Below are positions 1,359-51,391 of a DNA stretch of 64,000 bases, piece after piece; the first letter of the stretch is position 1, and each line of letters starts with the position of its first letter. The stretch is taken from assembly GCA_964016885.1 (NCBI GenBank), contig CAXHJY010000080.1:100758-164757 (forward strand), given 5' to 3'. This DNA is from Eledone cirrhosa (Eukaryota). The notes below the pieces were generated by a model. It was not told the DNA's origin, searched no databases, and saw only the letters and a list, made by a program, of their open reading frames with translations. The position numbers and the translations under genes were made by a program.

Positions 1359-1415
1359 GAGGAGAAATAGTGACACCTAGTAGAGTTCCAATAATTGAAA
1401 CAACCAGAAAGAGAG
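1359..1415 (+). CDS. 57-nt optional linker exon (GGEIVTPSRVPIIETTRKR), unit 1
   Basis: ttattatttccataaaAG|GAGGAGAA...AAGAGAG|GTgaga; phase 1-1, stop-free, purine-rich island in AT-rich intron. Confidence 0.75.
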
Positions 1416-1719
1416 GTGAGATATTACTGAAACATATTTATATATACTTAGATATGTTACAGAACAACACTTATAATATATAGAACATATTACATAACAA
1501 TTATTTCAATATCATCACTGGAATATTAATTAGTTATTCACAGTCAGCTATTGGAGATTAAACAGAAATATATATAGTAACATATTTCAAAATATCAACA
1601 TTTACATATTCTTATGAATATATAAAGTATATTTCAATATTTCAGATTATCTAGCAATGTCTTACTAACAGATTTCACATCATATCTTTAAACTTACAAC
1701 AATATTTTATTTCTCGCAG

Positions 1720-1764
1720 TTGTTGAAAAAACTCCAGCACCTGCTATTACATTACCAACTAAGG
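1720..1764 (+). CDS. 45-nt linker exon (VVEKTPAPAITLPTK), unit 1
   Basis: tttctcgcAG|TTGTTGAA...ACTAAGG|GTaagg; phase 1-1. Confidence 0.9.
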
Positions 1765-2514
1765 GTAAGGCCCTTGTACTCCTCAACATACTCTTTTATG
1801 TTATATTGATATCTTTATGTCTATGTTAATCATAGCTACCTCTTTCTTTGTCAATCTCTTATTTCTATATATAAACATTCATTGATCTGTCAGATGTTGT
1901 CAATATAATTCAGTAAATTATACTGTCTATCAGTAAAGTTCAATATATTTATCTATAGATGTAGTTATATCTTTTGTCTCTGTGATATATGTTTGGTATG
2001 TTTTCTATATTTGTTATTTCTAAGATACCATCTTGAAATATTTCTTATTATTTGTTTGATCTCCTGACAATGTAGTCTCCTCATATATGGTCTGTAGTTT
2101 CATGTTGTGTTGTTTATTTGGAATATTGTTTTATGTAGAGTTGTTATTGTTTTGTTGTAGTGTTTTGGTAACAATTCAAACCATATCTTGTTATGTGAAG
2201 TTATATCTTACCTTAATAAGTTGATTTCTATATTGATATATTGTTTTTGTTGATTCTTTGTTATGTGACAGTATATCCCTATGTACCAGTTGATGGTTTG
2301 TTATGTATCAGAATATATAGTTATGTTGTAATATTATTTCAATATTACCATGTCACCATCTTAACTGTTCTGTACTGTATCAATACAATGTACATGTAAT
2401 GTAACATATTGTTCTGTTATGTCACTCAGTCTATGTTAAAAGATAATGTTAGATTTATCTATCAGCCACTCTACATTATTCTATTAGTTAAAAACTTATT
2501 ATAATGTTCTCCAG

Positions 2515-3084
2515 GTGGCTGCGGCAATACAAAATCTGACATCATCTTCATTTTGGATTCCTCAACTAGTGTCCAAGCAGAAAATTTTCAGAAAATGCTC
2601 GATTTTGTAGTTGACTTTGTCTCTGCTGCTGATATTGACAGTGGCAATGTTAGAATCGGTGCAGTACTCTACAGTACAGATGTGAAAATACAATTCCATT
2701 TAAATGATTTCCAAAGTAAACAACAAATGATCAAGGCAGTTGGTGAAATTGCCTATGTTTATGGTAGTACAAACACTTATGGTGGACTAAACACAATGAG
2801 GACAGTAATGTTTACAAGAGAGAATGGTGACAGGCCATCTGTTGACAATATTGCCATACTTCTTACTGATGGTGTATCAAATATCAATTCATATCAGACT
2901 ATTCCAGAAGCAGTGAAAGTTAGAGAAGATGGCATCCATATATATGCTATAGGTATTGGTCTAACTGATACTACAGAATTGAGCAAGATTTCATCACTTC
3001 CTGTCAGTGAAAATATGTTTGTTGTCACTGATTTCAACGAATTATCGAATCTCAAGGAAAGAATCTTTGAACAATATTGCCCAG
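2515..3084 (+). CDS. vWA domain exon 1 (570 nt, 190 aa)
   Basis: ttctccAG|GTGGCTGC...TGCCCAG|GTatag; GCGNTKSDIIFILDSSTS (DxSxS), GSTNT, LLTDG, IYAIGIG, terminal YCP. Confidence 0.95.
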
Positions 3085-4524: not shown

Positions 4525-4581
4525 GAGGAGAAATAGTGACACCTAGTAGAGTTCCAATAATTGAAACAACCAGAAAGAGAG
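4525..4581 (+). CDS. 57-nt RKR linker exon, unit 2
   Basis: Same sequence and splice sites as 1359-1415. Confidence 0.75.
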
Positions 4582-4885
4582 GTGAGATATTACTGAAACA
4601 TATTTATATATACTTAGATATGTTACAGAACAACACTTATAATATATAGAACATATTACATAACAATTATTTCAATATCATCACTGGAATATTAATTAGT
4701 TATTCACAGTCAGCTATTGGAGATTAAACAGAAATATATATAGTAACATATTTCAAAATATCAACATTTACATATTCTTATGAATATATAAAGTATATTT
4801 CAATATTTCAGATTATCTAGCAATGTCTTACTAACAGATTTCACATCATATCTTTAAACTTACAACAATATTTTATTTCTCGCAG

Positions 4886-4930
4886 TTGTTGAAAAAACTC
4901 CAGCACCTGCTATTACATTACCAACTAAGG
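4886..4930 (+). CDS. 45-nt linker exon, unit 2
   Basis: Same as 1720-1764. Confidence 0.9.
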
Positions 4931-5680
4931 GTAAGGCCCTTGTACTCCTCAACATACTCTTTTATGTTATATTGATATCTTTATGTCTATGTTAATCATA
5001 GCTACCTCTTTCTTTGTCAATCTCTTATTTCTATATATAAACATTCATTGATCTGTCAGATGTTGTCAATATAATTCAGTAAATTATACTGTCTATCAGT
5101 AAAGTTCAATATATTTATCTATAGATGTAGTTATATCTTTTGTCTCTGTGATATATGTTTGGTATGTTTTCTATATTTGTTATTTCTAAGATACCATCTT
5201 GAAATATTTCTTATTATTTGTTTGATCTCCTGACAATGTAGTCTCCTCATATATGGTCTGTAGTTTCATGTTGTGTTGTTTATTTGGAATATTGTTTTAT
5301 GTAGAGTTGTTATTGTTTTGTTGTAGTGTTTTGGTAACAATTCAAACCATATCTTGTTATGTGAAGTTATATCTTACCTTAATAAGTTGATTTCTATATT
5401 GATATATTGTTTTTGTTGATTCTTTGTTATGTGACAGTATATCCCTATGTACCAGTTGATGGTTTGTTATGTATCAGAATATATAGTTATGTTGTAATAT
5501 TATTTCAATATTACCATGTCACCATCTTAACTGTTCTGTACTGTATCAATACAATGTACATGTAATGTAACATATTGTTCTGTTATGTCACTCAGTCTAT
5601 GTTAAAAGATAATGTTAGATTTATCTATCAGCCACTCTACATTATTCTATTAGTTAAAAACTTATTATAATGTTCTCCAG

Positions 5681-6250
5681 GTGGCTGCGGCAATACAAAA
5701 TCTGACATCATCTTCATTTTGGATTCCTCAACTAGTGTCCAAGCAGAAAATTTTCAGAAAATGCTCGATTTTGTAGTTGACTTTGTCTCTGCTGCTGATA
5801 TTGACAGTGGCAATGTTAGAATCGGTGCAGTACTCTACAGTACAGATGTGAAAATACAATTTCATTTAAATGATTTCCAAAGTAAACAACAAATGATCAT
5901 GGCAGTTGGTGAAATTGCCTATGTTTATGGTAGTACAAACACTTATGGTGGACTAAACACAATGAGGACAGTAATGTTTACAAGAGAGAATGGTGACAGG
6001 CCATCTGTTGACAATATTGCCATACTTCTTACTGATGGTGTATCAAATATCAATTCATATCAGACTATTCCAGAAGCAGTGAAAGTTAGAGAAGATGGCA
6101 TCCATATATATGCTATAGGTATTGGTCTAACTGATACTACAGAATTGAGCAAGATTTCATCACTTCCTGTCAGTGAAAATATGTTTGTTGTCACTGACTT
6201 CAACGAATTATCGAATCTCAAGGAAAGAATCTTTGAACAATATTGCCCAG
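5681..6250 (+). CDS. vWA domain exon 2 (K>M variant)
   Basis: Copy of exon 1; ORF track 5719-6270. Confidence 0.95.
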
Positions 6251-7705: not shown

Positions 7706-7750
7706 TTGTTGAAAAAACGCCAGCACCTGCTATTACATTACCAACTAAGG
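7706..7750 (+). CDS. 45-nt linker exon, unit 3 (synonymous ACT>ACG)
   Basis: Same splice sites; unit lacks the 57-nt exon. Confidence 0.9.
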
Positions 7751-8500
7751 GTAAGGCCCTTGTACTCCTCAACATACTCTTTTATGTTATATTGATATCT
7801 TTATGTCTATGTTAATCATAGCTACCTCTTTCTTTGTCAATCTCTTATTTCTATATATAAACATTCATTGATCTGTCAGATGTTGTCAATATAATTCAGT
7901 AAATTATACTGTCTATCAGTAAAGTTCAATATATTTATCTATAGATGTAGTTATATCTTTTGTCTCTGTGATATATGATTGGTATGTTTTCTATATTTGT
8001 TATTTCTAAGATACCATCTTGAAATATTTCTTATTATTTGTTTGATCTCCTGACAATGTAGTTTCCTCATATGTGGTCTGTAGTTTCATGTTGTGTTGTT
8101 TATTTGGAATATTGTTTTATGTAGAGTTGTTATTGTTTTGTTGTAGTGTTTTGGTAACAATTCAAACCATATCTTGTTATGTGAAGTTATATCTTACCTT
8201 AATAAGTTGATTTCTATATTGATATATTGTTTTTGTTGATTCTTTGTTATGTGACTGTATATCCCTATGTACCAGTTGATGGTTTGTTATGTATCAGAAT
8301 ATATAGTTATGTTGTAATATTATTTCAATATTACCATGTCACCATCTTAACCGTTCAGTACTGTATCAATACAATGTACATGTAATGTAACATATTGTTC
8401 TGTTATGTCACTCAGTCTATGTTAAAAGATAATGTTAGATTTATCTATCAGCCACTCTACATTATTCTATTAGTTAAAAACTTATTATAATGTTCTCCAG

Positions 8501-9070
8501 GTGGCTGCGGCAATACAAAATCTGACATCATCTTCATTTTGGATTCCTCAACTAGTGTCCAAGCAGAAAATTTTCAGAAAATGCTCGATTTTGTAGTTGA
8601 CTTTGTCTCTGCTGCTGATATTGACAGTGGCAATGTTAGAATCGGTGCAGTACTCTACAGTACAGATGTGAAAATACAATTTCATTTAAATGATTTCCAA
8701 AGTAAACAACAAATGATCATGGCAGTTGGTGAAATTGCCTATGTTTATGGTAGTACAAACACTTATGGTGGACTAAACACAATGAGGACAGTAATGTTTA
8801 CAAGAGAGAATGGTGACAGGCCATCTGTTGACAATATTGCCATACTTCTTACTGATGGTGTATCAAATATCAATTCATATCAGACTATTCCAGAAGCAGT
8901 GAAAGTTAGAGAAGATGGCATCCATATATATGCTATAGGTATTGGTCTAACTGATACTACAGAATTGAGCAAGATTTCATCACTTCCTGTCAGTGAAAAT
9001 ATGTTTGTTGTCACTGATTTCAACGAATTATCGAATCTCAAGGAAAGAATCTTTGAACAATATTGCCCAG
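8501..9070 (+). CDS. vWA domain exon 3 (K>M variant)
   Basis: Copy of exon 1; ORF track 8539-9090. Confidence 0.95.
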
Positions 9071-10508: not shown

Positions 10509-10553
10509 TTGTTGAAAAAACTCCAGCACCTGCTATTACATTACCAACTAAGG
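10509..10553 (+). CDS. 45-nt linker exon, unit 4
   Basis: Same splice sites. Confidence 0.9.
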
Positions 10554-11303
10554 GTAAGGCCCTTGTACTCCTCAACATACTCTTTTATGTTATATTGATA
10601 TCTTTATGTCTATGTTAATCATAGCTACCTCTTTCTTTGTCAATCTCTTATTTCTATATATAAACATTCATTGATCTGTCAGATGTTGTCAATATAATTC
10701 AGTAAATTATACTGTCTATCAGTAAAGTTCAATATATTTATCTATAGATGTAGTTATATCTTTTGTCTCTGTGATATATGTTTGGTATGTTTTCTATATT
10801 TGTTATTTCTAAGATACCATCTTGAAATATTTCTTATTATTTGTTTGATCTTCTGACAATGTAGTCTCCTCATATGTGGTCTGTAGTTTCATGTTGTGTT
10901 GTTTATTTGGAATATTGTTTTATGTAGAGTTGTTATTGTTTTGTTGTAGTGTTTTGATAACAATTCAAACCATATCTTGTTATGTGAAGTTATATCTTAC
11001 CTTAATAAGTTGATTTCTATATTGATATATTGTTTTTGTTGATTCTTTGTTATGTGACAGTATATCCCTATGTACCAGTTGATGGTTTGTTATGTATCAG
11101 AATATATAGTTATGTTGTAATATTATTTCAATATTACCCTGTCACCATCTTAACTGTTATGTACTGTATCAATACAATGTACATGTAATGTAACATATTG
11201 TTCTGTTATGTCACTCAGTCTATGTTAAAAGATAATGTTAGATTTATCTATCAGCCACTCTACATTATTCTATTAGTTAAAAACTTATTATAATGTTCTC
11301 CAG

Positions 11304-11873
11304 GTGGCTGCGGCAATACAAAATCTGACATCATCTTCATTTTGGATTCCTCAACTAGTGTTCAAGCAGAAAATTTTCAGAAAATGCTCGATTTTGTAGT
11401 TGACTTTGTCTCTGCTGCTGATATTGACAGTGGCAATGTTAGAATCGGTGCAGTACTCTACAGTACAGATGTGAAAATACAATTCCATTTAAATGATTTC
11501 CAAAGTAAACAACAAATGATCAAGGCAGTTGGTGAAATTGCCTATGTTTATGGTAGTACAAACACTTATGGTGGACTAAACACAATGAGGACAGTAATGT
11601 TTACAAGAGAGAATGGTGACAGGCCATCTGTTGACAATATTGCCATACTTCTTACTGATGGTGTATCAAATATCAATTCATATCAGACTATTCCAGAAGC
11701 AGTGAAAGTTAGAGAAGATGGCATCCATATATATGCTATAGGTATTGGTCTAACTGATACTACAGAATTGAGCAAGATTTCATCACTTCCTGTCAGTGAA
11801 AATATGTTTGTTGTCACTGATTTCAACGAATTATCGAATCTCAAGGAAAGAATCTTTGAACAATATTGCCCAG
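11304..11873 (+). CDS. vWA domain exon 4
   Basis: Copy of exon 1; ORF track 11342-11893. Confidence 0.95.
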
Positions 11874-13305: not shown

Positions 13306-13350
13306 TTGTTGAAAAAACGCCAGCACCTGCTATTACATTACCAACTAAGG
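13306..13350 (+). CDS. 45-nt linker exon, unit 5 (synonymous ACT>ACG)
   Basis: Same splice sites. Confidence 0.9.
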
Positions 13351-14100
13351 GTAAGGCCCTTGTACTCCTCAACATACTCTTTTATGTTATATTGATATCT
13401 TTATGTCTATGTTAATCATAGCTACCTCTTTCTTTGTCAATCTCTTATTTCTATATATAAACATTCATTGATCTGTCAGATGTTGTCAATATAATTCAGT
13501 AAATTATACTGTCTATCAGTAAAGTTCAATATATTTATCTATAGATGTAGTTATATCTTTTGTCTCTGTGATATATGATTGGTATGTTTTCTATATTTGT
13601 TATTTCTAAGATACCATCTTGAAATATTTCTTATTATTTGTTTGATCTCCTGACAATGTAGTTTCCTCATATGTGGTCTGTAGTTTCATGTTGTGTTGTT
13701 TATTTGGAATATTGTTTTATGTAGAGTTGTTATTGTTTTGTTGTAGTGTTTTGGTAACAATTCAAACCATATCTTGTTATGTGAAGTTATATCTTACCTT
13801 AATAAGTTGATTTCTATATTGATATATTGTTTTTGTTGATTCTTTGTTATGTGACTGTATATCCCTATGTACCAGTTGATGGTTTGTTATGTATCAGAAT
13901 ATATAGTTATGTTGTAATATTATTTCAATATTACCATGTCACCATCTTAACCGTTCAGTACTGTATCAATACAATGTACATGTAATGTAACATATTGTTC
14001 TGTTATGTCACTCAGTCTATGTTAAAAGATAATGTTAGATTTATCTATCAGCCACTCTACATTATTCTATTAGTTAAAAACTTATTATAATGTTCTCCAG

Positions 14101-14670
14101 GTGGCTGCGGCAATACAAAATCTGACATCATCTTCATTTTGGATTCCTCAACTAGTGTCCAAGCAGAAAATTTTCAGAAAATGCTCGATTTTGTAGTTGA
14201 CTTTGTCTCTGCTGCTGATATTGACAGTGGCAATGTTAGAATCGGTGCAGTACTCTACAGTACAGATGTGAAAATACAATTTCATTTAAATGATTTCCAA
14301 AGTAAACAACAAATGATCATGGCAGTTGGTGAAATTGCCTATGTTTATGGTAGTACAAACACTTATGGTGGACTAAACACAATGAGGACAGTAATGTTTA
14401 CAAGAGAGAATGGTGACAGGCCATCTGTTGACAATATTGCCATACTTCTTACTGATGGTGTATCAAATATCAATTCATATCAGACTATTCCAGAAGCAGT
14501 GAAAGTTAGAGAAGATGGCATCCATATATATGCTATAGGTATTGGTCTAACTGATACTACAGAATTGAGCAAGATTTCATCACTTCCTGTCAGTGAAAAT
14601 ATGTTTGTTGTCACTGATTTCAACGAATTATCGAATCTCAAGGAAAGAATCTTTGAACAATATTGCCCAG
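14101..14670 (+). CDS. vWA domain exon 5 (K>M variant)
   Basis: Copy of exon 1; ORF track 14139-14690. Confidence 0.95.
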
Positions 14671-16108: not shown

Positions 16109-16153
16109 TTGTTGAAAAAACTCCAGCACCTGCTATTACATTACCAACTAAGG
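16109..16153 (+). CDS. 45-nt linker exon, unit 6
   Basis: Same splice sites. Confidence 0.9.
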
Positions 16154-16903
16154 GTAAGGCCCTTGTACTCCTCAACATACTCTTTTATGTTATATTGATA
16201 TCTTTATGTCTATGTTAATCATAGCTACCTCTTTCTTTGTCAATCTCTTATTTCTATATATAAACATTCATTGATCTGTCAGATGTTGTCAATATAATTC
16301 AGTAAATTATACTGTCTATCAGTAAAGTTCAATATATTTATCTATAGATGTAGTTATATCTTTTGTCTCTGTGATATATGTTTGGTATGTTTTCTATATT
16401 TGTTATTTCTAAGATACCATCTTGAAATATTTCTTATTATTTGTTTGATCTTCTGACAATGTAGTCTCCTCATATGTGGTCTGTAGTTTCATGTTGTGTT
16501 GTTTATTTGGAATATTGTTTTATGTAGAGTTGTTATTGTTTTGTTGTAGTGTTTTGATAACAATTCAAACCATATCTTGTTATGTGAAGTTATATCTTAC
16601 CTTAATAAGTTGATTTCTATATTGATATATTGTTTTTGTTGATTCTTTGTTATGTGACAGTATATCCCTATGTACCAGTTGATGGTTTGTTATGTATCAG
16701 AATATATAGTTATGTTGTAATATTATTTCAATATTACCCTGTCACCATCTTAACTGTTATGTACTGTATCAATACAATGTACATGTAATGTAACATATTG
16801 TTCTGTTATGTCACTCAGTCTATGTTAAAAGATAATGTTAGATTTATCTATCAGCCACTCTACATTATTCTATTAGTTAAAAACTTATTATAATGTTCTC
16901 CAG

Positions 16904-17473
16904 GTGGCTGCGGCAATACAAAATCTGACATCATCTTCATTTTGGATTCCTCAACTAGTGTTCAAGCAGAAAATTTTCAGAAAATGCTCGATTTTGTAGT
17001 TGACTTTGTCTCTGCTGCTGATATTGACAGTGGCAATGTTAGAATCGGTGCAGTACTCTACAGTACAGATGTGAAAATACAATTCCATTTAAATGATTTC
17101 CAAAGTAAACAAGAAATGATCAAGGCAGTTGGTGAAATTGCCTATGTTTATGGTAGTACAAACACTTATGGTGGACTAAACACAATGAGGACAGTAATGT
17201 TTACAAGAGAGAATGGTGACAGGCCATCTGTTGACAATATTGCCATACTTCTTACTGATGGTGTATCAAATATCAATTCATATCAGACTATTCCAGAAGC
17301 AGTGAAAGTTAGAGAAGATGGCATCCATATATATGCTATAGGTATTGGTCTAACTGATACTACAGAATTGAGCAAGATTTCATCACTTCCTGTCAGTGAA
17401 AATATGTTTGTTGTCACTGATTTCAACGAATTATCGAATCTCAAGGAAAGAATCTTTGAACAATATTGCCCAG
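16904..17473 (+). CDS. vWA domain exon 6 (Q>E variant)
   Basis: Copy of exon 1; ORF track 16942-17493. Confidence 0.95.
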
Positions 17474-34040: not shown

Positions 34041-34097
34041 GAGGAGAAATAGTGACACCTAGTAGAGTTCCAATAATTGAAACAACCAGAAAGAGAG
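34041..34097 (+). CDS. 57-nt RKR linker exon, unit 12
   Basis: Same as 1359-1415. Confidence 0.75.
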
Positions 34098-34401: not shown

Positions 34402-34446
34402 TTGTTGAAAAAACTCCAGCACCTGCTATTACATTACCAACTAAGG
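34402..34446 (+). CDS. 45-nt linker exon, unit 12
   Basis: Same splice sites. Confidence 0.9.
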
Positions 34447-35196
34447 GTAAGGCCCTTGTACTCCTCAACATACTCTTTTATGTTATATTGATATCTTTAT
34501 GTCTATGTTAATCATAGCTACCTCTTTCTTTGTCAATCTCTTATTTCTATATATAAACATTCATTGATCTGTCAGATGTTGTCAATATAATTCAGTAAAT
34601 TATACTGTCTATCAGTAAAGTTCAATATATTTATCTATAGATGTAGTTATATCTTTTGTCTCTGTGATATATGTTTGGTATGTTTTCTATATTTGTTATT
34701 TCTAAGATACCATCTTGAAATATTTCTTATTATTTGTTTGATCTCCTGACAATGTAGTCTCCTCATATATGGTCTGTAGTTTCATGTTGTGTTGTTTATT
34801 TGGAATATTGTTTTATGTAGAGTTGTTATTGTTTTGTTGTAGTGTTTTGGTAACAATTCAAACCATATCTTGTTATGTGAAGTTATATCTTACCTTAATA
34901 AGTTGATTTCTATATTGATATATTGTTTTTGTTGCTTCTTTGTTATGTGACAGTATATCCCTATGTACCAGTTGATGGTTTGTTATGTATCAGAATATAT
35001 AGTTATGTTGTAATATTATTTCAATATTACCATGTCACCATCTTAACTGTTCTGTACTGTATCAATACAATGTACATGTAATGTAACATATTGTTCTGTT
35101 ATGTCACTCAGTCTATGTTAAAAGATAATGTTAGATTTATCTATCAGCCACTCTACATTATTCTATTAGTTAAAAACTTATTATAATGTTCTCCAG

Positions 35197-35766
35197 GTGG
35201 CTGCGGCAATACAAAATCTGACATCATCTTCATTTTGGATTCCTCAACTAGTGTCCAAGCAGAAAATTTTCAGAAAATGCTCGATTTTGTAGTTGACTTT
35301 GTCTCTGCTGCTGATATTGACAGTGGCAATGTTAGAATCGGTGCAGTACTCTACAGTACAGATGTGAAAATACAATTCCATTTAAATGATTTCCAAAGTA
35401 AACAACAAATGATCAAGGCAGTTGGTGAAATTGCCTATGTTTATGGTAGTACAAACACTTATGGTGGACTAAACACAATGAGGACAGTAATGTTTACAAG
35501 AGAGAATGGTGACAGGCCATCTGTTGACAATATTGCCATACTTCTTACTGATGGTGTATCAAATATCAATTCATATCAGACTATTCCAGAAGCAGTGAAA
35601 GTTAGAGAAGATGGCATCCATATATATGCTATAGGTATTGGTCTAACTGATACTACAGAATTGAGCAAGATTTCATCACTTCCTGTCAGTGAAAATATGT
35701 TTGTTGTCACTGATTTCAACGAATTATCGAATCTCAAGGAAAGAATCTTTGAACAATATTGCCCAG
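35197..35766 (+). CDS. vWA domain exon 12
   Basis: Copy of exon 1; ORF track 35235-35786. Confidence 0.95.
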
Positions 35767-37335: not shown

Positions 37336-37392
37336 GAGGAGAAATAGTGACACCTAGTAGAGTTCCAATAATTGAAACAACCAGAAAGAGAG
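37336..37392 (+). CDS. 57-nt RKR linker exon, unit 13
   Basis: Same as 1359-1415. Confidence 0.75.
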
Positions 37393-37696
37393 GTGAGATA
37401 TTACTGAAACATATTTATATATACTTAGATATGTTACAGAACAACACTTATAATATATAGAACATATTACATAACAATTATTTCAATATCATCACTGGAA
37501 TATTAATTAGTTATTCACAGTCAGCTATTGGAGATTAAACAGAAATATATATAGTAACATATTTCAAAATATCAACATTTACATATTCTTATGAATATAT
37601 AAAGTATATTTCAATATTTCAGATTATCTAGCAATGTCTTACTAACAGATTTCACATCATATCTTTAAACTTACAACAATATTTTATTTCTCGCAG

Positions 37697-37741
37697 TTGT
37701 TGAAAAAACTCCAGCACCTGCTATTACATTACCAACTAAGG
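37697..37741 (+). CDS. 45-nt linker exon, unit 13
   Basis: Same splice sites. Confidence 0.9.
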
Positions 37742-38491
37742 GTAAGGCCCTTGTACTCCTCAACATACTCTTTTATGTTATATTGATATCTTTATGTCTA
37801 TGTTAATCATAGCTACCTCTTTCTTTGTCAATCTCTTATTTCTATATATAAACATTCATTGATCTGTCAGATGTTGTCAATATAATTCAGTAAATTATAC
37901 TGTCTATCAGTAAAGTTCAATATATTTATCTATAGATGTAGTTATATCTTTTGTCTCTGTGATATATGTTTGGTATGTTTTCTATATTTGTTATTTCTAA
38001 GATACCATCTTGAAATATTTCTTATTATTTGTTTGATCTCCTGACAATGTAGTCTCCTCATATATGGTCTGTAGTTTCATGTTGTGTTGTTTATTTGGAA
38101 TATTGTTTTATGTAGAGTTGTTATTGTTTTGTTGTAGTGTTTTGGTAACAATTCAAACCATATCTTGTTATGTGAAGTTATATCTTACCTTAATAAGTTG
38201 ATTTCTATATTGATATATTGTTTTTGTTGATTCTTTGTTATGTGACAGTATATCCCTATGTACCAGTTGATGGTTTGTTATGTATCAGAATATATAGTTA
38301 TGTTGTAATATTATTTCAATATTACCATGTCACCATCTTAACTGTTCTGTACTGTATCAATACAATGTACATGTAATGTAACATATTGTTCTGTTATGTC
38401 ACTCAGTCTATGTTAAAAGATAATGTTAGATTTATCTATCAGCCACTCTACATTATTCTATTAGTTAAAAACTTATTATAATGTTCTCCAG

Positions 38492-39061
38492 GTGGCTGCG
38501 GCAATACAAAATCTGACATCATCTTCATTTTGGATTCCTCAACTAGTGTCCAAGCAGAAAATTTTCAGAAAATGCTCGATTTTGTAGTTGACTTTGTCTC
38601 TGCTGCTGATATTGACAGTGGCAATGTTAGAATCGGTGCAGTACTCTACAGTACAGATGTGAAAATACAATTCCATTTAAATGATTTCCAAAGTAAACAA
38701 CAAATGATCAAGGCAGTTGGTGAAATTGCCTATGTTTATGGTAGTACAAACACTTATGGTGGACTAAACACAATGAGGACAGTAATGTTTACAAGAGAGA
38801 ATGGTGACAGGCCATCTGTTGACAATATTGCCATACTTCTTACTGATGGTGTATCAAATATCAATTCATATCAGACTATTCCAGAAGCAGTGAAAGTTAG
38901 AGAAGATGGCATCCATATATATGCTATAGGTATTGGTCTAACTGATACTACAGAATTGAGCAAGATTTCATCACTTCCTGTCAGTGAAAATATGTTTGTT
39001 GTCACTGATTTCAACGAATTATCGAATCTCAAGGAAAGAATCTTTGAACAATATTGCCCAG
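38492..39061 (+). CDS. vWA domain exon 13
   Basis: Copy of exon 1; ORF track 38530-39081. Confidence 0.95.
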
Positions 39062-40501: not shown

Positions 40502-40558
40502 GAGGAGAAATAGTGACACCTAGTAGAGTTCCAATAATTGAAACAACCAGAAAGAGAG
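40502..40558 (+). CDS. 57-nt RKR linker exon, unit 14
   Basis: Same as 1359-1415. Confidence 0.75.
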
Positions 40559-40862
40559 GTGAGATATTACTGAAACATATTTATATATACTTAGATATGT
40601 TACAGAACAACACTTATAATATATAGAACATATTACATAACAATTATTTCAATATCATCACTGGAATATTAATTAGTTATTCACAGTCAGCTATTGGAGA
40701 TTAAACAGAAATATATATAGTAACATATTTCAAAATATCAACATTTACATATTCTTATGAATATATAAAGTATATTTCAATATTTCAGATTATCTAGCAA
40801 TGTCTTACTAACAGATTTCACATCATATCTTTAAACTTACAACAATATTTTATTTCTCGCAG

Positions 40863-40907
40863 TTGTTGAAAAAACTCCAGCACCTGCTATTACATTACCA
40901 ACTAAGG
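40863..40907 (+). CDS. 45-nt linker exon, unit 14
   Basis: Same splice sites. Confidence 0.9.
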
Positions 40908-41657
40908 GTAAGGCCCTTGTACTCCTCAACATACTCTTTTATGTTATATTGATATCTTTATGTCTATGTTAATCATAGCTACCTCTTTCTTTGTCAATCT
41001 CTTATTTCTATATATAAACATTCATTGATCTGTCAGATGTTGTCAATATAATTCAGTAAATTATACTGTCTATCAGTAAAGTTCAATATATTTATCTATA
41101 GATGTAGTTATATCTTTTGTCTCTGTGATATATGTTTGGTATGTTTTCTATATTTGTTATTTCTAAGATACCATCTTGAAATATTTCTTATTATTTGTTT
41201 GATCTCCTGACAATGTAGTCTCCTCATATATGGTCTGTAGTTTCATGTTGTGTTGTTTATTTGGAATATTGTTTTATGTAGAGTTGTTATTGTTTTGTTG
41301 TAGTGTTTTGGTAACAATTCAAACCATATCTTGTTATGTGAAGTTATATCTTACCTTAATAAGTTGATTTCTATATTGATATATTGTTTTTGTTGATTCT
41401 TTGTTATGTGACAGTATATCCCTATGTACCAGTTGATGGTTTGTTATGTATCAGAATATATAGTTATGTTGTAATATTATTTCAATATTACCATGTCACC
41501 ATCTTAACTGTTCTGTACTGTATCAATACAATGTACATGTAATGTAACATATTGTTCTGTTATGTCACTCAGTCTATGTTAAAAGATAATGTTAGATTTA
41601 TCTATCAGCCACTCTACATTATTCTATTAGTTAAAAACTTATTATAATGTTCTCCAG

Positions 41658-42227
41658 GTGGCTGCGGCAATACAAAATCTGACATCATCTTCATTTTGGA
41701 TTCCTCAACTAGTGTCCAAGCAGAAAATTTTCAGAAAATGCTCGATTTTGTAGTTGACTTTGTCTCTGCTGCTGATATTGACAGTGGCAATGTTAGAATC
41801 GGTGCAGTACTCTACAGTACAGATGTGAAAATACAATTCCATTTAAATGATTTCCAAAGTAAACAACAAATGATCAAGGCAGTTGGTGAAATTGCCTATG
41901 TTTATGGTAGTACAAACACTTATGGTGGACTAAACACAATGAGGACAGTAATGTTTACAAGAGAGAATGGTGACAGGCCATCTGTTGACAATATTGCCAT
42001 ACTTCTTACTGATGGTGTATCAAATATCAATTCATATCAGACTATTCCAGAAGCAGTGAAAGTTAGAGAAGATGGCATCCATATATATGCTATAGGTATT
42101 GGTCTAACTGATACTACAGAATTGAGCAAGATTTCATCACTTCCTGTCAGTGAAAATATGTTTGTTGTCACTGATTTCAACGAATTATCGAATCTCAAGG
42201 AAAGAATCTTTGAACAATATTGCCCAG
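41658..42227 (+). CDS. vWA domain exon 14
   Basis: Copy of exon 1; ORF track 41696-42247. Confidence 0.95.
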
Positions 42228-43667: not shown

Positions 43668-43724
43668 GAGGAGAAATAGTGACACCTAGTAGAGTTCCAA
43701 TAATTGAAACAACCAGAAAGAGAG
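43668..43724 (+). CDS. 57-nt RKR linker exon, unit 15
   Basis: Same as 1359-1415. Confidence 0.75.
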
Positions 43725-44028
43725 GTGAGATATTACTGAAACATATTTATATATACTTAGATATGTTACAGAACAACACTTATAATATATAGAACATATT
43801 ACATAACAATTATTTCAATATCATCACTGGAATATTAATTAGTTATTCACAGTCAGCTATTGGAGATTAAACAGAAATATATATAGTAACATATTTCAAA
43901 ATATCAACATTTACATATTCTTATGAATATATAAAGTATATTTCAATATTTCAGATTATCTAGCAATGTCTTACTAACAGATTTCACATCATATCTTTAA
44001 ACTTACAACAATATTTTATTTCTCGCAG

Positions 44029-44073
44029 TTGTTGAAAAAACTCCAGCACCTGCTATTACATTACCAACTAAGG
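44029..44073 (+). CDS. 45-nt linker exon, unit 15
   Basis: Same splice sites. Confidence 0.9.
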
Positions 44074-44823
44074 GTAAGGCCCTTGTACTCCTCAACATAC
44101 TCTTTTATGTTATATTGATATCTTTATGTCTATGTTAATCATAGCTACCTCTTTCTTTGTCAATCTCTTATTTCTATATATAAACATTCATTGATCTGTC
44201 AGATGTTGTCAATATAATTCAGTAAATTATACTGTCTATCAGTAAAGTTCAATATATTTATCTATAGATGTAGTTATATCTTTTGTCTCTGTGATATATG
44301 TTTGGTATGTTTTCTATATTTGTTATTTCTAAGATACCATCTTGAAATATTTCTTATTATTTGTTTGATCTCCTGACAATGTAGTCTCCTCATATATGGT
44401 CTGTAGTTTCATGTTGTGTTGTTTATTTGGAATATTGTTTTATGTAGAGTTGTTATTGTTTTGTTGTAGTGTTTTGGTAACAATTCAAACCATATCTTGT
44501 TATGTGAAGTTATATCTTACCTTAATAAGTTGATTTCTATATTGATATATTGTTTTTGTTGATTCTTTGTTATGTGACAGTATATCCCTATGTACCAGTT
44601 GATGGTTTGTTATGTATCAGAATATATAGTTATGTTGTAATATTATTTCAATATTACCATGTCACCATCTTAACTGTTCTGTACTGTATCAATACAATGT
44701 ACATGTAATGTAACATATTGTTCTGTTATGTCACTCAGTCTATGTTAAAAGATAATGTTAGATTTATCTATCAGCCACTCTACATTATTCTATTAGTTAA
44801 AAACTTATTATAATGTTCTCCAG

Positions 44824-45393
44824 GTGGCTGCGGCAATACAAAATCTGACATCATCTTCATTTTGGATTCCTCAACTAGTGTCCAAGCAGAAAATTTTCAG
44901 AAAATGCTCGATTTTGTAGTTGACTTTGTCTCTGCTGCTGATATTGACAGTGGCAATGTTAGAATCGGTGCAGTACTCTACAGTACAGATGTGAAAATAC
45001 AATTCCATTTAAATGATTTCCAAAGTAAACAACAAATGATCAAGGCAGTTGGTGAAATTGCCTATGTTTATGGTAGTACAAACACTTATGGTGGACTAAA
45101 CACAATGAGGACAGTAATGTTTACAAGAGAGAATGGTGACAGGCCATCTGTTGACAATATTGCCATACTTCTTACTGATGGTGTATCAAATATCAATTCA
45201 TATCAGACTATTCCAGAAGCAGTGAAAGTTAGAGAAGATGGCATCCATATATATGCTATAGGTATTGGTCTAACTGATACTACAGAATTGAGCAAGATTT
45301 CATCACTTCCTGTCAGTGAAAATATGTTTGTTGTCACTGATTTCAACGAATTATCGAATCTCAAGGAAAGAATCTTTGAACAATATTGCCCAG
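44824..45393 (+). CDS. vWA domain exon 15
   Basis: Copy of exon 1; ORF track 44862-45413. Confidence 0.95.
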
Positions 45394-46839: not shown

Positions 46840-46896
46840 GAGGAGAAATAGTGACACCTAGTAGAGTTCCAATAATTGAAACAACCAGAAAGAGAG
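46840..46896 (+). CDS. 57-nt RKR linker exon, unit 16
   Basis: Same as 1359-1415. Confidence 0.75.
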
Positions 46897-47200
46897 GTGA
46901 GATATTACTGAAACATATTTATATATACTTAGATATGTTACAGAACAACACTTATAATATATAGAACATATTACATAACAATTATTTCAATATCATCACT
47001 GGAATATTAATTAGTTATTCACAGTCAGCTATTGGAGATTAAACAGAAATATATATAGTAACATATTTCAAAATATCAACATTTACATATTCTTATGAAT
47101 ATATAAAGTATATTTCAATATTTCAGATTATCTAGCAATGTCTTACTAACAGATTTCACATCATATCTTTAAACTTACAACAATATTTTATTTCTCGCAG

Positions 47201-47245
47201 TTGTTGAAAAAACTCCAGCACCTGCTATTACATTACCAACTAAGG
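47201..47245 (+). CDS. 45-nt linker exon, unit 16
   Basis: Same splice sites. Confidence 0.9.
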
Positions 47246-47995
47246 GTAAGGCCCTTGTACTCCTCAACATACTCTTTTATGTTATATTGATATCTTTATG
47301 TCTATGTTAATCATAGCTACCTCTTTCTTTGTCAATCTCTTATTTCTATATATAAACATTCATTGATCTGTCAGATGTTGTCAATATAATTCAGTAAATT
47401 ATACTGTCTATCAGTAAAGTTCAATATATTTATCTATAGATGTAGTTATATCTTTTGTCTCTGTGATATATGTTTGGTATGTTTTCTATATTTGTTATTT
47501 CTAAGATACCATCTTGAAATATTTCTTATTATTTGTTTGATCTCCTGACAATGTAGTCTCCTCATATGTGGTCTGTAGTTTCATGTTGTGTTGTTTATTT
47601 GGAATATTGTTTTATGTAGAGTTGTTATTGTTTTGTTGTAGTGTTTTGGTAACAATTCAAACCATATCTTGTTATGTGAAGTTATATCTTACCTTAATAA
47701 GTTGATTTCTATATTGATATATTGTTTTTGTTGATTCTTTGTTATGTGACAGTATATCCCTATGTACCAGTTGATGGTTTGTTATGTATCAGAATATATA
47801 GTTATGTTGTAATATTATTTCAATATTACCATGTCACCATCTTAACTGTTCTGTACTGTATCAATACAATGTACATGTAATGTAACATATTGTTCTGTTA
47901 TGTCACTCAGTCTATGTTAAAAGATAATGTTAGATTTATCTATCAGCCACTCTACATTATTCTATTAGTTAAAAACTTATTATAATGTTCTCCAG

Positions 47996-48565
47996 GTGGC
48001 TGCGGCAATACAAAATCTGACATCATCTTCATTTTGGATTCCTCAACTAGTGTCCAAGCAGAAAATTTTCAGAAAATGCTCGATTTTGTAGTTGACTTTG
48101 TCTCTGCTGCTGATATTGACAGTGGCAATGTTAGAATCGGTGCAGTACTCTACAGTACAGATGTGAAAATACAATTCCATTTAAATGATTTCCAAAGTAA
48201 ACAACAAATGATCAAGGCAGTTGGTGAAATTGCCTATGTTTATGGTAGTACAAACACTTATGGTGGACTAAACACAATGAGGACAGTAATGTTTACAAGA
48301 GAGAATGGTGACAGGCCATCTGTTGACAATATTGCCATACTTCTTACTGATGGTGTATCAAATATCAATTCATATCAGACTATTCCAGAAGCAGTGAAAG
48401 TTAGAGAAGATGGCATCCATATATATGCTATAGGTATTGGTCTAACTGATACTACAGAATTGAGCAAGATTTCATCACTTCCTGTCAGTGAAAATATGTT
48501 TGTTGTCACTGATTTCAACGAATTATCGAATCTCAAGGAAAGAATCTTTGAACAATATTGCCCAG
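47996..48565 (+). CDS. vWA domain exon 16
   Basis: Copy of exon 1; ORF track 48034-48585. Confidence 0.95.
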
Positions 48566-50026
48566 GTATAGCAATTAGCATGTGATAACAAAGTGATACT
48601 GTACTTGATACTATTACTAATATCCAATCCCTCAGGCAATTAATATTCTAAAGATATATCATTTATCAATATTGCTTACTGCCATTATATAAAATATCAG
48701 CTTTATTAAATATCTAAGTCAGCTTTTACAATTCCTGCAGTTAACAGTTCTAATAATATCAGTAAATATCCCATGTCATTGCGCTACATACCTTTCCCTT
48801 CCACCTTCTATAATGTATGTTATCCTATGATAACTCCTATTGCTTTATTAACAATGACTCATCCATGCGATATCTGTTTGTCAGTTAGAATCAAATAACT
48901 GAAATTATATCTACCTTCTTTTTTAATATTATTTATTATCAAGGTTGAAATATTCTGTACAATCTCTACAGTATATTTATATTCTAGTGATAACATTCCA
49001 TATAACATTGACCTTCCAAATATATAACATTGATTATGAACTAATTTTTAATGACCCAATACTCTGGCTGTGTATTAGTTTTACTGTTTCATTCTACAAT
49101 TATTTCTCTTATAATTAACAGATTATTTTCTTCAATAAGTCGTTATATTTCTAGAATCTTAGAATGATTCATATTAATAAAAACTAATGGAGACAAGATT
49201 GCTGTACACTCAATCTTCACAATTACCAGCATTTATTGATGTAATTACTCTGTATTTAACACAGCTAATATCTCTGCTTTAAAACCTAGACATAAATTCC
49301 TAATATATACCATTAAGTCATAGATCCTTTACAATATGTGAAGATAATCTACCAATATTCTTTATAATGCTTCTACAAAATATGATGCCATAACTGTTAT
49401 GACAATACCTGCAGCATGTAATTGTGATAACGTCTACCAATATACTGAATTAGTGTATAATATATCTTATTTGCTTCATGTCATTCTAGTGGAATTTTTT
49501 TTTATAATATATAAAATTTCACTGTTGCCATATCTTCAGCTTTATGCATGTGTGAATTATTGTAAATAATAGAAACTGTATTTCTGTATAAATGTGTAGA
49601 TTAATTGATAACCAGTGATTATGTAACGTTTGTGATATTCTGGAAAGGTAACTGTGATATGAATGGAAGGCTGAATAATACTTTTCTTGTGACAAACTCT
49701 AACTTTCAGATATTCTTGTGACAAACTGTGACTTTCACACAAATACTAATAGATTTATTACAGAACAACACTTATAATATATAGAACACATTACATAACA
49801 ATTATTTCAATATCATCACTGGAATATTAATTAGTTATTCACAGTCAGCTATTGGAGATTAAACAGAAATATATATATATATAGTAACATATTTCAAAAT
49901 ATCAACATTTACATATTCTTATGAATATATAAAGTATATTTCAATATTTCAGATTATCTAGCAATGTCTTACTAACAGATTTCACATCATATCTTTAAAC
50001 TTACAACAATATTTTATTTCTCGCAG

Positions 50027-50071
50027 TTGTTGAAAAAACTCCAGCACCTGCTATTACATTACCAACTGAGG
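50027..50071 (+). CDS. 45-nt linker exon, unit 17 (terminal K>E: ...LPTE)
   Basis: Same splice sites; AAG>GAG. Confidence 0.9.
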
Positions 50072-50821
50072 GTAAGGCCCTTGTACTCCTCAACATACTC
50101 TTTTATGTTATATTGATATCTTTATGTCTATGTTAATCATAGCTACCTCTTTCTTTGTCAATCTCTTATTTCTATATATAAACATTCATTGATCTGTCAG
50201 ATGTTGTCAATATAATTCAGTAAATTATACTGTCTATCAGTAAAGTTCAATATATTTATCTATAGATGTAGTTATATCTTTTGTCTCTGTGATATATGTT
50301 TGGTATGTTTTCTATATTTGTTATTTCTAAGATACCATCTTGAAATATTTCTTATTATTTGTTTGATCTCCTGACAATGTAGTCTCCTCATATGTGGTCT
50401 GTAGTTTCATGTTGTGTTGTTTATTTGAAATATTGTTTTATGTAGAGTTGTTATTGTTTTGTTGTAGTGTTTTGGTAACAATTCAAACCATATCTTGTTT
50501 TGTGAAGTTATATCTTACCTTAATAAGTTGATTTCTATATTGATATATTGTTTTTGTTGATTCTTTGTTATGTGACAGTATATCCCTATGTACCAGTTGA
50601 TGCTTTGTTATGTATCAGAATATATAGTTATGTTGTAATATTATTTCAATATTACCATGTCACCATCTTAACTGTTATGTACTGTATCAATACAATGTAC
50701 ATGTAATGTAACATATTGTTCTGTTATGTCACTCAGTCTATGTTAAAAGATAATGTTAGATTTATCTATCAACCACTCTACATTATTCTATTAGTGAAAA
50801 ACTTATCCCAATGTTCTCCAG

Positions 50822-51391
50822 GTGGCTGCGGCAATACAAAATCTGACATCATCTTCATTTTGGATTCCTCAACTAGTGTCCAAGCAGAAAATTTTCAGAA
50901 AATGCTCGATTTTGTAGTTGACTTTGTCTCTGCTGCTGATATTGACAGTGGCAATGTTAGAATCGGTGCAGTACTCTACAGTACAGATGTGAAAATACAA
51001 TTTCATTTAAATGATTTCCAAAGTAAACAACAAATGATCAAGGCAGTTGGTGAAATTGCCTATGTTTATGGTAGTACAAACACTTATGGTGGACTAAACA
51101 CAATGAGGACAGTAATGTTTACAAGAGAGAATGGTGACAGGCCATCTGTTGACAATATTGCCATACTTCTTACTGATGGTGTATCAAATATCAATTCATA
51201 TCAGACTATTCCAGAAGCAGTGAAAGTTAGAGAAGATGGCATCCATATATATGCTATAGGTATTGGTCTAACTGATACTACAGAATTGAGCAAGATTTCA
51301 TCACTTCCTGTCAGTGAAAATATGTTTGTTGTCACTGATTTCAACGAATTATCGAATCTCAAGGAAAGAATCTTTGAACAATATTGCCCAG
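50822..51391 (+). CDS. vWA domain exon 17 (last of array)
   Basis: Copy of exon 1; lies within ORF 50716-51411. Confidence 0.95.

What the first reader, a model, noticed from the sequence alone, without database searches (positions are those of the whole stretch)
1359..51391. One giant gene built from 17+ virtually identical vWA exon-intron cassettes
Seen: the 183-aa 'genes' start at TTG, have no signal peptide, and sit inside 570-nt exons bounded by ctccAG and CAG|GT. Every exon is phase 1-1, giving ...EQYCP-[GGEIVTPSRVPIIETTRKR]-VVEKTPAPAITLPTK-GGCGNTKSDIIFILDSSTSV... without stops. That is 17x190+17x15+10x19 = 3,675 aa within the window, and the array runs off the left edge. Only two amino-acid variants (K>M, Q>E) occur among the 17 domains. 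Known: multi-vWA proteins such as collagen VI alpha-3, matrilins and VWF have strongly diverged domains. Inference: a homopolymeric 'beads on a string' vWA protein, probably a secreted adhesive, mucus, matrix or egg-coat component whose valency is set by repeat number.
Basis: partly seen in the sequence, partly recalled or inferred. Interest (0 to 1): 0.85.

Follow-up and report, generated by a model that had tools for sequence, protein, structure and literature searches.

The report
Giant octopus repeated-vWA matrix protein gene
A gene, likely from an octopus, carries 17 nearly identical copies of one exon-intron block, each coding a vWA adhesion domain, and a public run shows one block's domain exon spliced onward into the linker and domain exons; the array is likely the expandable middle of a giant, likely secreted protein shared across molluscs that likely cross-links connective tissue, and similar near-identical blocks sit in the predicted proteins of several snails and cephalopods.

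Summary
In detail: 17 units of 2.8-3.3 kb, at least 99% identical including introns, hold 17 vWA exons (570 nt), 17 linker exons B and 10 linker exons A, all phase 1-1, joining to 11,025 nt without a stop. A contig of run X4 is spliced vWA-B-vWA; exon A was not seen spliced. The domain has a complete MIDAS and is under purifying selection (p about 0.02); the units recombine. The reading needs two corrections. First, it is not a homopolymer: three downstream mini-exons match Octopus sinensis LOC115223644, whose model continues into a mucin-like stretch, diverged vWA domains and vWA-EGF repeats; this gene is pan-molluscan, with signal peptides in complete orthologues. Second, it is not unique: 11 of 20 mollusc giants examined have blocks of 3-25 domains at 95% or more, which cluster by species (concerted evolution), and an electric eel COL6A3 model has one too. 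Best reading: a triple-helix-free, collagen-VI-like matrix protein whose valency changes by unequal crossing over, like DMBT1. Function is inferred. I found no paper describing the array.

The parts
1..1358 (+). Rest of the intron after an upstream vWA exon that lies off the window (window starts at intron position 83)
   Evidence: alignment
1359..3084 (+). Unit 1: exon A 1359-1415, exon B 1720-1764, vWA exon 2515-3084
4525..6250 (+). Unit 2: A 4525-4581, B 4886-4930, vWA 5681-6250 (K73M)
7706..9070 (+). Unit 3 (exon A deleted): B 7706-7750, vWA 8501-9070 (K73M)
10509..11873 (+). Unit 4 (A deleted): B 10509-10553, vWA 11304-11873
13306..14670 (+). Unit 5 (A deleted): B 13306-13350, vWA 14101-14670 (K73M); 1 substitution from unit 3
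16109..17473 (+). Unit 6 (A deleted): B 16109-16153, vWA 16904-17473 (Q70E)
18912..20276 (+). Unit 7 (A deleted): B 18912-18956, vWA 19707-20276
21715..23079 (+). Unit 8 (A deleted): B 21715-21759, vWA 22510-23079; mosaic of the unit 9 type and the unit 4/6/7 type
24520..26245 (+). Unit 9: A 24520-24576, B 24881-24925, vWA 25676-26245
27686..29411 (+). Unit 10: A 27686-27742, B 28047-28091, vWA 28842-29411 (Q70E)
30875..32600 (+). Unit 11: A 30875-30931, B 31236-31280, vWA 32031-32600
34041..35766 (+). Unit 12: A 34041-34097, B 34402-34446, vWA 35197-35766
37336..39061 (+). Unit 13: A 37336-37392, B 37697-37741, vWA 38492-39061; 106-nt duplication in its first intron
40502..42227 (+). Unit 14: A 40502-40558, B 40863-40907, vWA 41658-42227
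43668..45393 (+). Unit 15: A 43668-43724, B 44029-44073, vWA 44824-45393; 0 substitutions from unit 14
46840..48565 (+). Unit 16: A 46840-46896, B 47201-47245, vWA 47996-48565; reference on which the spliced contig was laid
50027..51391 (+). Unit 17 (A deleted): B 50027-50071 (K>E), vWA 50822-51391; edge unit, 23-31 substitutions from all others except unit 16 (13)
51392..51805 (+). Partial copy of the unit's first intron that decays with distance: the array's 3' edge
55521..55547 (+). Predicted 27-nt phase 1-1 mini-exon (RPTRYMPT), in the place of O. sinensis GRPIPT
   Evidence: not seen spliced
57085..57138 (+). Predicted 54-nt phase 1-1 Pro-rich exon (PPSIPPTP...), matches O. sinensis P0143 residues 1002-1022
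   Evidence: tblastn 81% over 21 columns, E 9e-8 against the window tail; splice sites
62401..62463 (+). Predicted 63-nt phase 1-1 Pro-rich exon (PPPIILSPPP...), matches P0143 residues 1021-1038
   Evidence: tblastn 78% over 18 columns, E 6e-6; splice sites
63760..63810 (+). Possible further phase 1-1 mini-exon (51 or 12 nt by the acceptor used); uncertain, no match to P0143
   Evidence: no hit there among the 25 best

Best explanation
The 17 near-identical exon-intron units are spliced in frame as part of one gene and likely form the expandable central block of a pan-molluscan giant vWA-EGF protein that is likely secreted and likely acts as a multivalent, metal-dependent cross-linker in connective-tissue matrix, its number of binding sites likely changing by unequal crossing over. 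Steps. SHOWN: phase 1-1 cassettes with one open frame; a spliced vWA-B-vWA contig; a vWA fold with a complete MIDAS signature and terminal Cys pair; fewer amino-acid changes than neutral; mosaic, recombining units; domains that cluster by species. INFERRED BY ORTHOLOGY: upstream a signal peptide and about 4-5 diverged vWA domains; downstream a Pro/Thr-rich stretch, about 10 more vWA domains and four EGF-vWA pairs; no triple helix and no membrane anchor; total above 7,000 aa. INFERRED FROM FAMILY KNOWLEDGE: each domain binds a divalent metal at MIDAS and through it an acidic residue of a partner, most likely collagen (as recalled for integrin alpha2 I domains and mussel PTMP1); Cys2-Cys188 closes each bead; Pro/Thr linkers are O-glycosylated spacers. 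Because all exons are phase 1-1, whole units or exon A can be gained, lost or skipped without breaking the frame. Odds: gene structure and concerted evolution about 0.93; matrix cross-linker as main job about 0.6.
For: Frame and splice sites. Splicing: X4 contig 23 (486 nt) covers 48326-48562, 47198-47244, 47995-48196 with a 750-nt GT..AG skip, X4 has depth in 8 of 30 bins, all at exons B and vWA; the predicted junction product is also 486 nt and open. Domain: Pfam VWA E 9e-44; model pLDDT 91; TM 0.90-0.91 to collagen VI alpha3 N2 and PTMP1; D14-S16-S18, T85, D118, C2, C188. Selection: 3 of 8 exon variants change a residue against 78% of sites, p 0.016; Fisher against intron plus silent sites p 0.019. 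Recombination: 139 of 820 site pairs fail the four-gamete test, at least 6 events; one 369-nt deletion of exon A with the same ends in units 3-8 and 17. Orthology: O. sinensis P0143 has 4 full domains at 99-100% to each other and 85% to ours, an identical exon-B peptide and the same order of downstream mini-exons. Its last five vWA domains each group by position with 8-9 other molluscs (support 97-100), while central domains group by species or lineage (window rows 100/98, octopod set 99/95, coleoid set 100/99). Hydrophobic N-termini in complete orthologues and no C-terminal hydrophobic stretch above 1.4 in them. A Pomacea 'collagen alpha-3(VI)-like' isoform X18 with four EGF among vWA domains and no triple helix was found in the proteome of the connective-walled ampulla (PMC8533556, passages); our hits P0163 and P0370 are isoforms X11 and X10 under that name, so likely the same gene.
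Against: No ligand, tissue or expression data for this gene in this species. Only one spliced contig from one study, run kind not on record; a contig cannot tell a linear vWA-to-next-B splice from a back-splice. Exon A and the downstream exons were not seen spliced. Orthologue architectures are gene predictions, several partial or low quality; P0143 itself starts mid-domain and has no signal peptide. That Pomacea X18 is the same gene as X10/X11 is inferred from name and architecture. An internal matrix cross-linker gives no obvious reason for lasting homogenisation and for 15% change between octopods; 9 of 10 bivalve entries lack such blocks.
Confidence: 0.58

Rival explanations
1. Same gene structure, but the product is an external secretion: skin mucus, glue or egg-coat component, where many identical domains raise gel cross-linking.
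For: Pro/Thr-rich linkers and a 389-aa stretch with 27% Pro, 14% Thr in the orthologue. vWA/EGF 'matrilin-like' transcripts are named as adhesive components of a semislug (PMC11178922, passages); vWA proteins in snail mucus (PMC10475054, passages); 'collagen alpha-3 and 4', 'cartilage matrix' and VWFA proteins in octopus skin mucus (PMC11431876, passages); the closest non-collagen solved relative is byssal PTMP1. Blocks were found in 10 of 10 gastropod and cephalopod entries.
Against: None of those papers could be tied to this gene: the octopus mucus supplement could not be read and accession searches gave no main-text hit for the octopus proteins. The likely Pomacea orthologue was found in an internal organ.
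Confidence: 0.2
2. A DMBT1-like multivalent recognition protein: the array binds microbes or another non-self surface, and copy number and fast species-wide replacement of the repeat are driven by host-microbe conflict.
For: Same layout as DMBT1, tandem binding domains with Ser/Thr-rich spacers and 7-21 copies that change bacterial binding (PMC9038570, passages). Concerted evolution of domain repeats is rare and is proposed to go with host-parasite conflict (PMC5100051, passages). Repeat is 99% within but 85% between octopods; 8 of 29 differences fall in one 16-residue stretch (scan p 0.045), which also holds both within-array variants. The Pomacea protein rose about twofold after nematode exposure (table value 1.05, p 0.003).
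Against: Homogenisation needs no selection once a phase 1-1 tandem exists. The clustering is weak and may reflect surface exposure. No excess of amino-acid change within the array. The rate of the repeat against other domains could not be measured, as this species' other domains are off the window. The Pomacea authors read the change as matrix remodelling.
Confidence: 0.13
3. A polyprotein: exon A ends in a basic stretch (TRKR) at which a convertase would cut the chain into single or short runs of vWA domains, so that exon A loss or skipping sets fragment length.
For: The basic end of exon A is kept in O. sinensis (TRKR in P0141, TTKR in P0143); 10 of 17 units carry it.
Against: No R-X-K/R-R furin site; cuttlefish, argonaut and snail linkers mostly lack a paired basic site; exon A had no cover in the spliced run.
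Confidence: 0.05
4. The array is inflated by assembly error, or the units are not joined in one linear mRNA (the spliced contig being a back-spliced circle from one unit).
For: Near-identical 3-kb repeats are hard to assemble; no genome is held to check. The exon A segment has 0.42-0.47 of the unit's depth in X1-X3 against 0.59 (10 of 17) in the window. Contigs cannot tell circle from line.
Against: Units carry a structured set of variants; several, the 23-nt indel, the head-to-tail joint and the exon A deletion joint also stand in read-derived contigs, though these runs may be the source sample. Units have no start, signal peptide or stop of their own. Other species have the same kind of array with their own repeat. 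The depth difference is as well explained by units off the window or a second haplotype.
Confidence: 0.04

Closest known systems
Octopus sinensis LOC115223644 (XP_036368516.1, 4,624 aa) and its mollusc orthologues (e.g. Babylonia XP_076459446.1, Gigantopelta XP_041374199.1, Pomacea XP_025106489.1; Sepia pharaonis CAE1248467/68/71/77)
   Same: Same repeat type (85% to O. sinensis, 77% to cuttlefish), same linker exons, same downstream mini-exons; own near-identical central blocks.
   Different: O. sinensis model shows only 4 full plus 1 partial copy and starts mid-domain; here at least 17 resolved units with introns. All are unnamed or mis-named predictions; no paper on the array found.
DMBT1 / salivary agglutinin (SRCR array)
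   Same: Tandem binding domains with Ser/Thr-rich spacers inside one large secreted protein; number of repeats as the variable (PMC9038570, passages).
   Different: SRCR rather than vWA; CUB and ZP end rather than vWA-EGF; copy-number variation and microbe binding are shown for DMBT1 and untested here. LPA kringle IV-2 and abalone VERL are further analogues (recalled, not read).
Collagen VI alpha3 chain
   Same: String of vWA domains; best PDB sequence hit, TM 0.90 to the N2 domain; source of the automatic names. An electric eel COL6A3 model also has a homogenised two-domain block, 10 plus 9 copies.
   Different: No Gly-X-Y run in 20 of 20 mollusc proteins against 3 in each of 3 vertebrate chains; about 30% identity; dog and frog chains have domains at most 47% alike.
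Mussel PTMP1 (proximal thread matrix protein 1)
   Same: Mollusc extracellular vWA domains with MIDAS (entry 4cn9 is zinc-occupied), TM 0.91, about 31% identity.
   Different: Two diverged domains in 454 aa; byssus-specific; collagen binding is recalled for PTMP1 and untested here.
Matrilins and 'matrilin-like' gastropod glue proteins; Pif/BMSP shell proteins
   Same: vWA with EGF (matrilin-like) or tandem vWA (BMSP, four domains; PMC11291548, passages).
   Different: Far larger; no chitin-binding or laminin G domain in the orthologue; BMSP domains group by position, not by species.

Membership tests
vWA / integrin I domain with MIDAS | Rossmann-like vWA fold | tested here: met
   Pfam PF00092 E 9e-44; model pLDDT 91, TM 0.84-0.91 to I domains, COL6A3 N2, PTMP1
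vWA / integrin I domain with MIDAS | DxSxS...T...D residues (motif recalled) | tested here: met
   DSSTS at 14-18, T85, D118 in all three domain variants
vWA / integrin I domain with MIDAS | Metal-dependent ligand binding | not testable with these tools
   needs an assay
Pan-molluscan giant vWA-EGF protein (O. sinensis LOC115223644 group) | Array domain falls in the group's central-domain clade | tested here: met
   Sister to O. sinensis array domains, 99/95 and 99
Pan-molluscan giant vWA-EGF protein (O. sinensis LOC115223644 group) | Collinear exons after the array | tested here: met
   Two tblastn matches in order (E 9e-8, 6e-6) plus a 27-nt exon in the expected place
Pan-molluscan giant vWA-EGF protein (O. 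sinensis LOC115223644 group) | N-terminal signal peptide and C-terminal vWA-EGF repeats in this species | not testable with these tools
   Off both ends of the window; no genome held
Concerted evolution of an intragenic domain array | Repeats more alike within than between species | tested here: met
   99% or more within, 85% to O. sinensis, 77% to cuttlefish; species clusters in trees
Concerted evolution of an intragenic domain array | Recombination among units | tested here: met
   139 of 820 site pairs incompatible, at least 6 events; mean distance rises from about 12 (neighbours) to about 20
Collagen VI | Gly-X-Y triple helix | tested here: not met
   0 runs in 20 of 20 mollusc proteins, 3 in each vertebrate control; no collagen Pfam in P0143; tested on orthologues, the window holds only part of the gene
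Collagen VI | Tandem N-terminal vWA domains | tested here: met
   likeness only, about 30% identity
Matrilins | vWA plus EGF domains | tested here: met
   20 VWA and 4 EGF stretches in P0143
Matrilins | One or two vWA domains (recalled) | tested here: not met
   17 or more here, 19-20 in P0143
Matrilins | C-terminal coiled coil for oligomerisation (recalled) | not tested
   no coiled-coil prediction run
Pif/BMSP shell proteins | Chitin-binding and laminin G domains after the vWA | tested here: not met
   none among 9 Pfam families of P0143; definition from PMC11291548 passages
DMBT1-type agglutinin | Tandem domains with Ser/Thr-rich spacers | tested here: met
   S/T/P make 6 of 19 (A) and 6 of 15 (B) residues; works-like only
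DMBT1-type agglutinin | SRCR, CUB and ZP domains | tested here: not met
DMBT1-type agglutinin | Copy-number variation among individuals and microbe binding | not testable with these tools
   only 2 samples of 1 study, as contigs

The most novel reading that the evidence does not exclude
Molluscs share one giant vWA-EGF gene whose middle block has kept re-homogenising, separately in cephalopods, gastropods and a pearl oyster, since the classes split: a heritable 'valency dial' of MIDAS domains, polymorphic in copy number among individuals and tuned further by optional linker exons, under selection from a species-specific partner (microbes or a co-evolving matrix or gamete ligand). It would be the vWA counterpart of DMBT1 and an undescribed recognition or materials system across a phylum.
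Probability: 0.2. Interest if true: 0.72.

Novelty: new variant of a known kind. Interest (0 to 1): 0.47.

Why it matters
It resolves, at exon-intron level, a gene that databases hold only as broken or mis-named 'collagen VI-like' models, and shows how its domain number can change without breaking the frame. The same block is homogenised species by species in snails and cephalopods, which makes it a ready test case for why some domain arrays evolve in concert, an exception among repeat proteins (PMC5100051). If valency matters for matrix or mucus mechanics, it is a natural series of 3 to 25 or more identical binding sites. The class of mechanism is known from DMBT1 and similar genes, so the surprise is moderate.

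Tried and rejected
No whole genome is held, so the 5' end, signal peptide and total copy number could not be read. The look-up of sequencing runs: no RNA holder listed on record; not used as evidence. No cover of exon A in X4: contigs drop rare forms, so this is no proof of skipping. Homodimer job with Mg: no answer, score 0.00, no evidence either way. Metagenome scan with the single protein found no relative among 598 candidates; with alignment A1 it gave 10 short loci, 29-58% identical, not followed up. Our earlier findings: nothing by place, sequence or words. ORFs 56869-57183 and 59079-59588 have no Pfam match; the first overlaps the 54-nt exon. Candidate exons 54647-54742 and 59332-59424 from the splice scan have no match to P0143 among the 25 best hits and were dropped. 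A GT-bounded stretch near 52733-52770 that resembles the end of exon A is not a multiple of three as read by eye and was dropped. Depth of one 4,078-nt contig (7.4) against the unit (about 220) in X2 would suggest some 30 units, but the tool warns that depth is no copy number; not used. Rate of the repeat against flanking domains could not be compared. Literature: searches (words; accessions) found no description of this array; the library holds only open-licence PMC papers and bioRxiv, supplements are not searched, and the supplement of PMC11431876 could not be read, which may list the octopus protein.

Full report
OBSERVATION. The first 51.4 kb of the window is a head-to-tail array: median 20-mer copy number is 10-17 up to 51,500 and 1 beyond. 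It has 17 units of 2,797-3,295 nt. Each holds a 45-nt exon B, a 750-nt intron and a 570-nt vWA exon; ten also hold a 57-nt exon A. All 44 exons have AG before and GT after and are phase 1-1; joined they give 11,025 nt with no stop. Units differ by 0-31 substitutions, introns included. Twelve domains are identical, three carry K73M, two Q70E; exon B of unit 17 has K>E. The window starts 83 nt into the intron that follows a vWA exon, so the array most likely goes on to the left. On the right a partial intron copy decays over about 410 nt.

IS IT ONE GENE? Four public runs of one study hold the exon; their kind is not on record. Laid on one non-redundant unit (46570-49750), run X4 has depth in 8 of 30 bins, all at exon B and the vWA exon, and its 486-nt contig runs vWA 3' part, exon B, vWA 5' part, with the 750-nt GT..AG intron removed. 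The predicted junction product has the same length and one open frame. That X4 is RNA is inferred from this. It shows a vWA exon spliced onward to a B exon; a contig cannot exclude a back-splice, and exon A had no cover. Runs X1-X3 cover 30 of 30 bins and show the head-to-tail joint, the exon A deletion joint (both halves listed for X2), the 23-nt indel and several unit variants, so the variants are not assembly noise; these runs may be the source sample and are not independent support for copy number. The exon A segment has 0.42-0.47 of the unit depth against 10 of 17 in the window, a weak hint that more A-less units lie elsewhere.

THE DOMAIN. Pfam VWA, E 9e-44. The model (57-row alignment, pLDDT 91) matches collagen VI alpha3 N2 (TM 0.90), mussel PTMP1 (0.91) and integrin I domains. 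The MIDAS residues D14, S16, S18, T85, D118 and the terminal Cys2 and Cys188 are present (motif recalled). Of 8 variable exon sites 5 are silent and 3 change a residue, where 523 of 672 sites are non-silent: p 0.016; against intron and silent sites p 0.019. So the array is coding and constrained.

HOW THE ARRAY EVOLVES. Among 41 informative sites, 139 of 820 pairs fail the four-gamete test, at least 6 recombination events. Look-alike units alternate (3 and 5; 4, 6, 7, 8; 9, 11, 13; 10, 12, 14, 15), units 8 and 16 are mosaics, and the edge unit is the most distant: the pattern expected of unequal crossing over in one- and two-unit steps plus conversion (inference). Exon A was lost by one 369-nt deletion with the same ends in units 3-8 and 17 (unit lengths), with TAGAT on both sides. 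All length changes are intronic or remove a whole phase 1-1 exon.

WHAT THE GENE IS. The closest named proteins are from Octopus sinensis (85%) and the cuttlefish Sepia pharaonis (77%), so the source is likely an octopod other than O. sinensis. O. sinensis LOC115223644 (P0143, 4,624 aa) opens with one partial and four full domains 99-100% alike, joined by the same exon B peptide and an A-like peptide, then has short Pro-rich pieces that match, in order, three predicted phase 1-1 mini-exons at 55521-55547, 57085-57138 and 62401-62463 (two by tblastn at E 9e-8 and 6e-6, the first by position only). It continues with a 389-aa Pro/Thr-rich stretch, diverged vWA domains and four EGF-vWA pairs. Cuttlefish pieces of the array and of the vWA-EGF end lie on one contig under neighbouring accessions. 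A search with the O. sinensis block among long proteins gave 74 hits; I analysed 20 mollusc proteins and 5 chordate ones, leaving out further isoforms of Mya and Mizuhopecten, four distant mollusc hits and most vertebrate chains. In a tree of 201 domains (14 proteins, near-identical copies thinned to two, FastTree), the last five vWA domains of P0143 each group by position with 8-9 other molluscs at support 97-100, and the first domains of complete proteins group largely by position, while the central domains group by species or lineage. A 62-row IQ-TREE gave the same: window rows 100/98, octopod array 99/95, coleoid array 100/99, and seven downstream domains pairing O. sinensis with O. bimaculoides by position at 94-98% identity. 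Complete orthologues start with a hydrophobic stretch typical of a signal peptide (read by eye and by hydropathy, no dedicated predictor) and show no clear C-terminal anchor. None of the 20 has a Gly-X-Y run. So the array is the central block of a pan-molluscan, likely secreted vWA-EGF giant, here likely above 7,000 aa (3,675 plus about 3,600 by the orthologue, plus the unseen 5' part).

HOW UNUSUAL? Blocks of three or more domains at 95% or more (single linkage) occur in 11 of the 20: O. sinensis 4, Argonauta 25, three Haliotis 20, 17 and 7, Gigantopelta three blocks of 4, Batillaria 6 and 11, Babylonia 12, Biomphalaria 12, Pomacea 3, Pinctada 3; that is 10 of 10 cephalopod and gastropod entries and 1 of 10 bivalve entries. 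The search favours proteins with many like copies and assemblies may collapse arrays, so the split by class is a lead only. The Haliotis proteins have another layout (array right after the signal peptide, then many EGF) and may be a paralogue; the Argonauta repeat is a sister type, 62% to ours. An electric eel COL6A3 model, flagged low quality, has a homogenised two-domain block; dog and frog chains do not. All are predictions whose introns I could not see.

HOW IT MOST LIKELY WORKS. Shown: cassette structure, onward splicing, fold, MIDAS residues, constraint, recombination. Inferred: secretion; a chain of disulfide-closed beads on glycosylated spacers; each bead gripping an acidic residue of a partner through a metal ion, many beads giving avidity. 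I commit to cross-linking of connective-tissue collagen (0.58). The best pointer is Pomacea XP_025106551.1, isoform X18 of 'collagen alpha-3(VI)-like', with four EGF among vWA domains and no triple helix, found in the connective-walled ampulla (PMC8533556, passages); our hits are isoforms X10 and X11 under the same name. Rivals: external mucus, glue or egg coat (0.20), DMBT1-like agglutinin (0.13), polyprotein cut at the basic end of exon A (0.05), artefact or circular RNA (0.04).

LITERATURE. Seen as passages: PMC11431876, PMC5100051, PMC9038570, PMC11178922, PMC12817120, PMC11291548, PMC10475054, PMC13394694, PMC8533556; the rest as search listings only. PTMP1 collagen binding, LPA and VERL are recalled. 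Ten searches found no account of this array or of concerted evolution in this family; the library lacks most subscription papers, and the octopus mucus supplement could not be read.

VERDICT. Real, well built and expressed in spliced form; one gene, but the middle of a larger known-in-databases protein and one of many such mollusc arrays. New variant of a known kind; interest 0.47.

Noticed in passing
P0159 (Electrophorus electricus col6a3 model, XP_035391851.1): A vertebrate collagen VI alpha3 model with a two-domain vWA block repeated about ten times at 98-100% identity (31 vWA in all); flagged low quality, so real expansion or assembly effect is open.
   Followed up: partly
P0152, P0154, P0164 (Haliotis): Abalone proteins with a signal peptide, 7-20 identical, strongly basic vWA domains and, in two, 23-34 EGF motifs: likely a separate homogenised paralogue.
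   Followed up: partly
P0151 (Argonauta hians GAB1610759.1): 25 near-identical vWA domains of a sister repeat type (62% to the window), with an optional linker; coleoids seem to have at least two or three repeat types, and one unnamed 67-kb contig holds two types.
   Followed up: partly
P0157 (Pinctada) and P0153 (Gigantopelta): A second vWA type is also homogenised, alternating with the first in Pinctada and as its own block in Gigantopelta.
   Followed up: no
window 2517-3083, residues 64-79: Both within-array variants (70, 73) and 8 of 29 differences from O. sinensis fall in one helix region (scan p 0.045); may be just a free surface.
   Followed up: partly
window 51917-52112, 58430-58617, 59068-59143; 54314-54407 and 54556-54643: Dispersed repeats in the downstream introns, 77-87% alike, SINE-like by recall of octopus repeats.
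   Followed up: no
window 54939-55227: Tandem repeat of 57 nt, about 5 copies, in the intron before the first downstream mini-exon.
   Followed up: no
window 48222-48355 (run X4, contig 24): A 159-nt contig that reads 48222-48355 and then 48326-48350 again; unexplained, perhaps a graph or template-switch artefact.
   Followed up: no
P0141 and P0143 (O. sinensis): Exon B appears twice in a row in some O. sinensis linkers and is missing in others, so linker exons are gained and lost in that species too.
   Followed up: no
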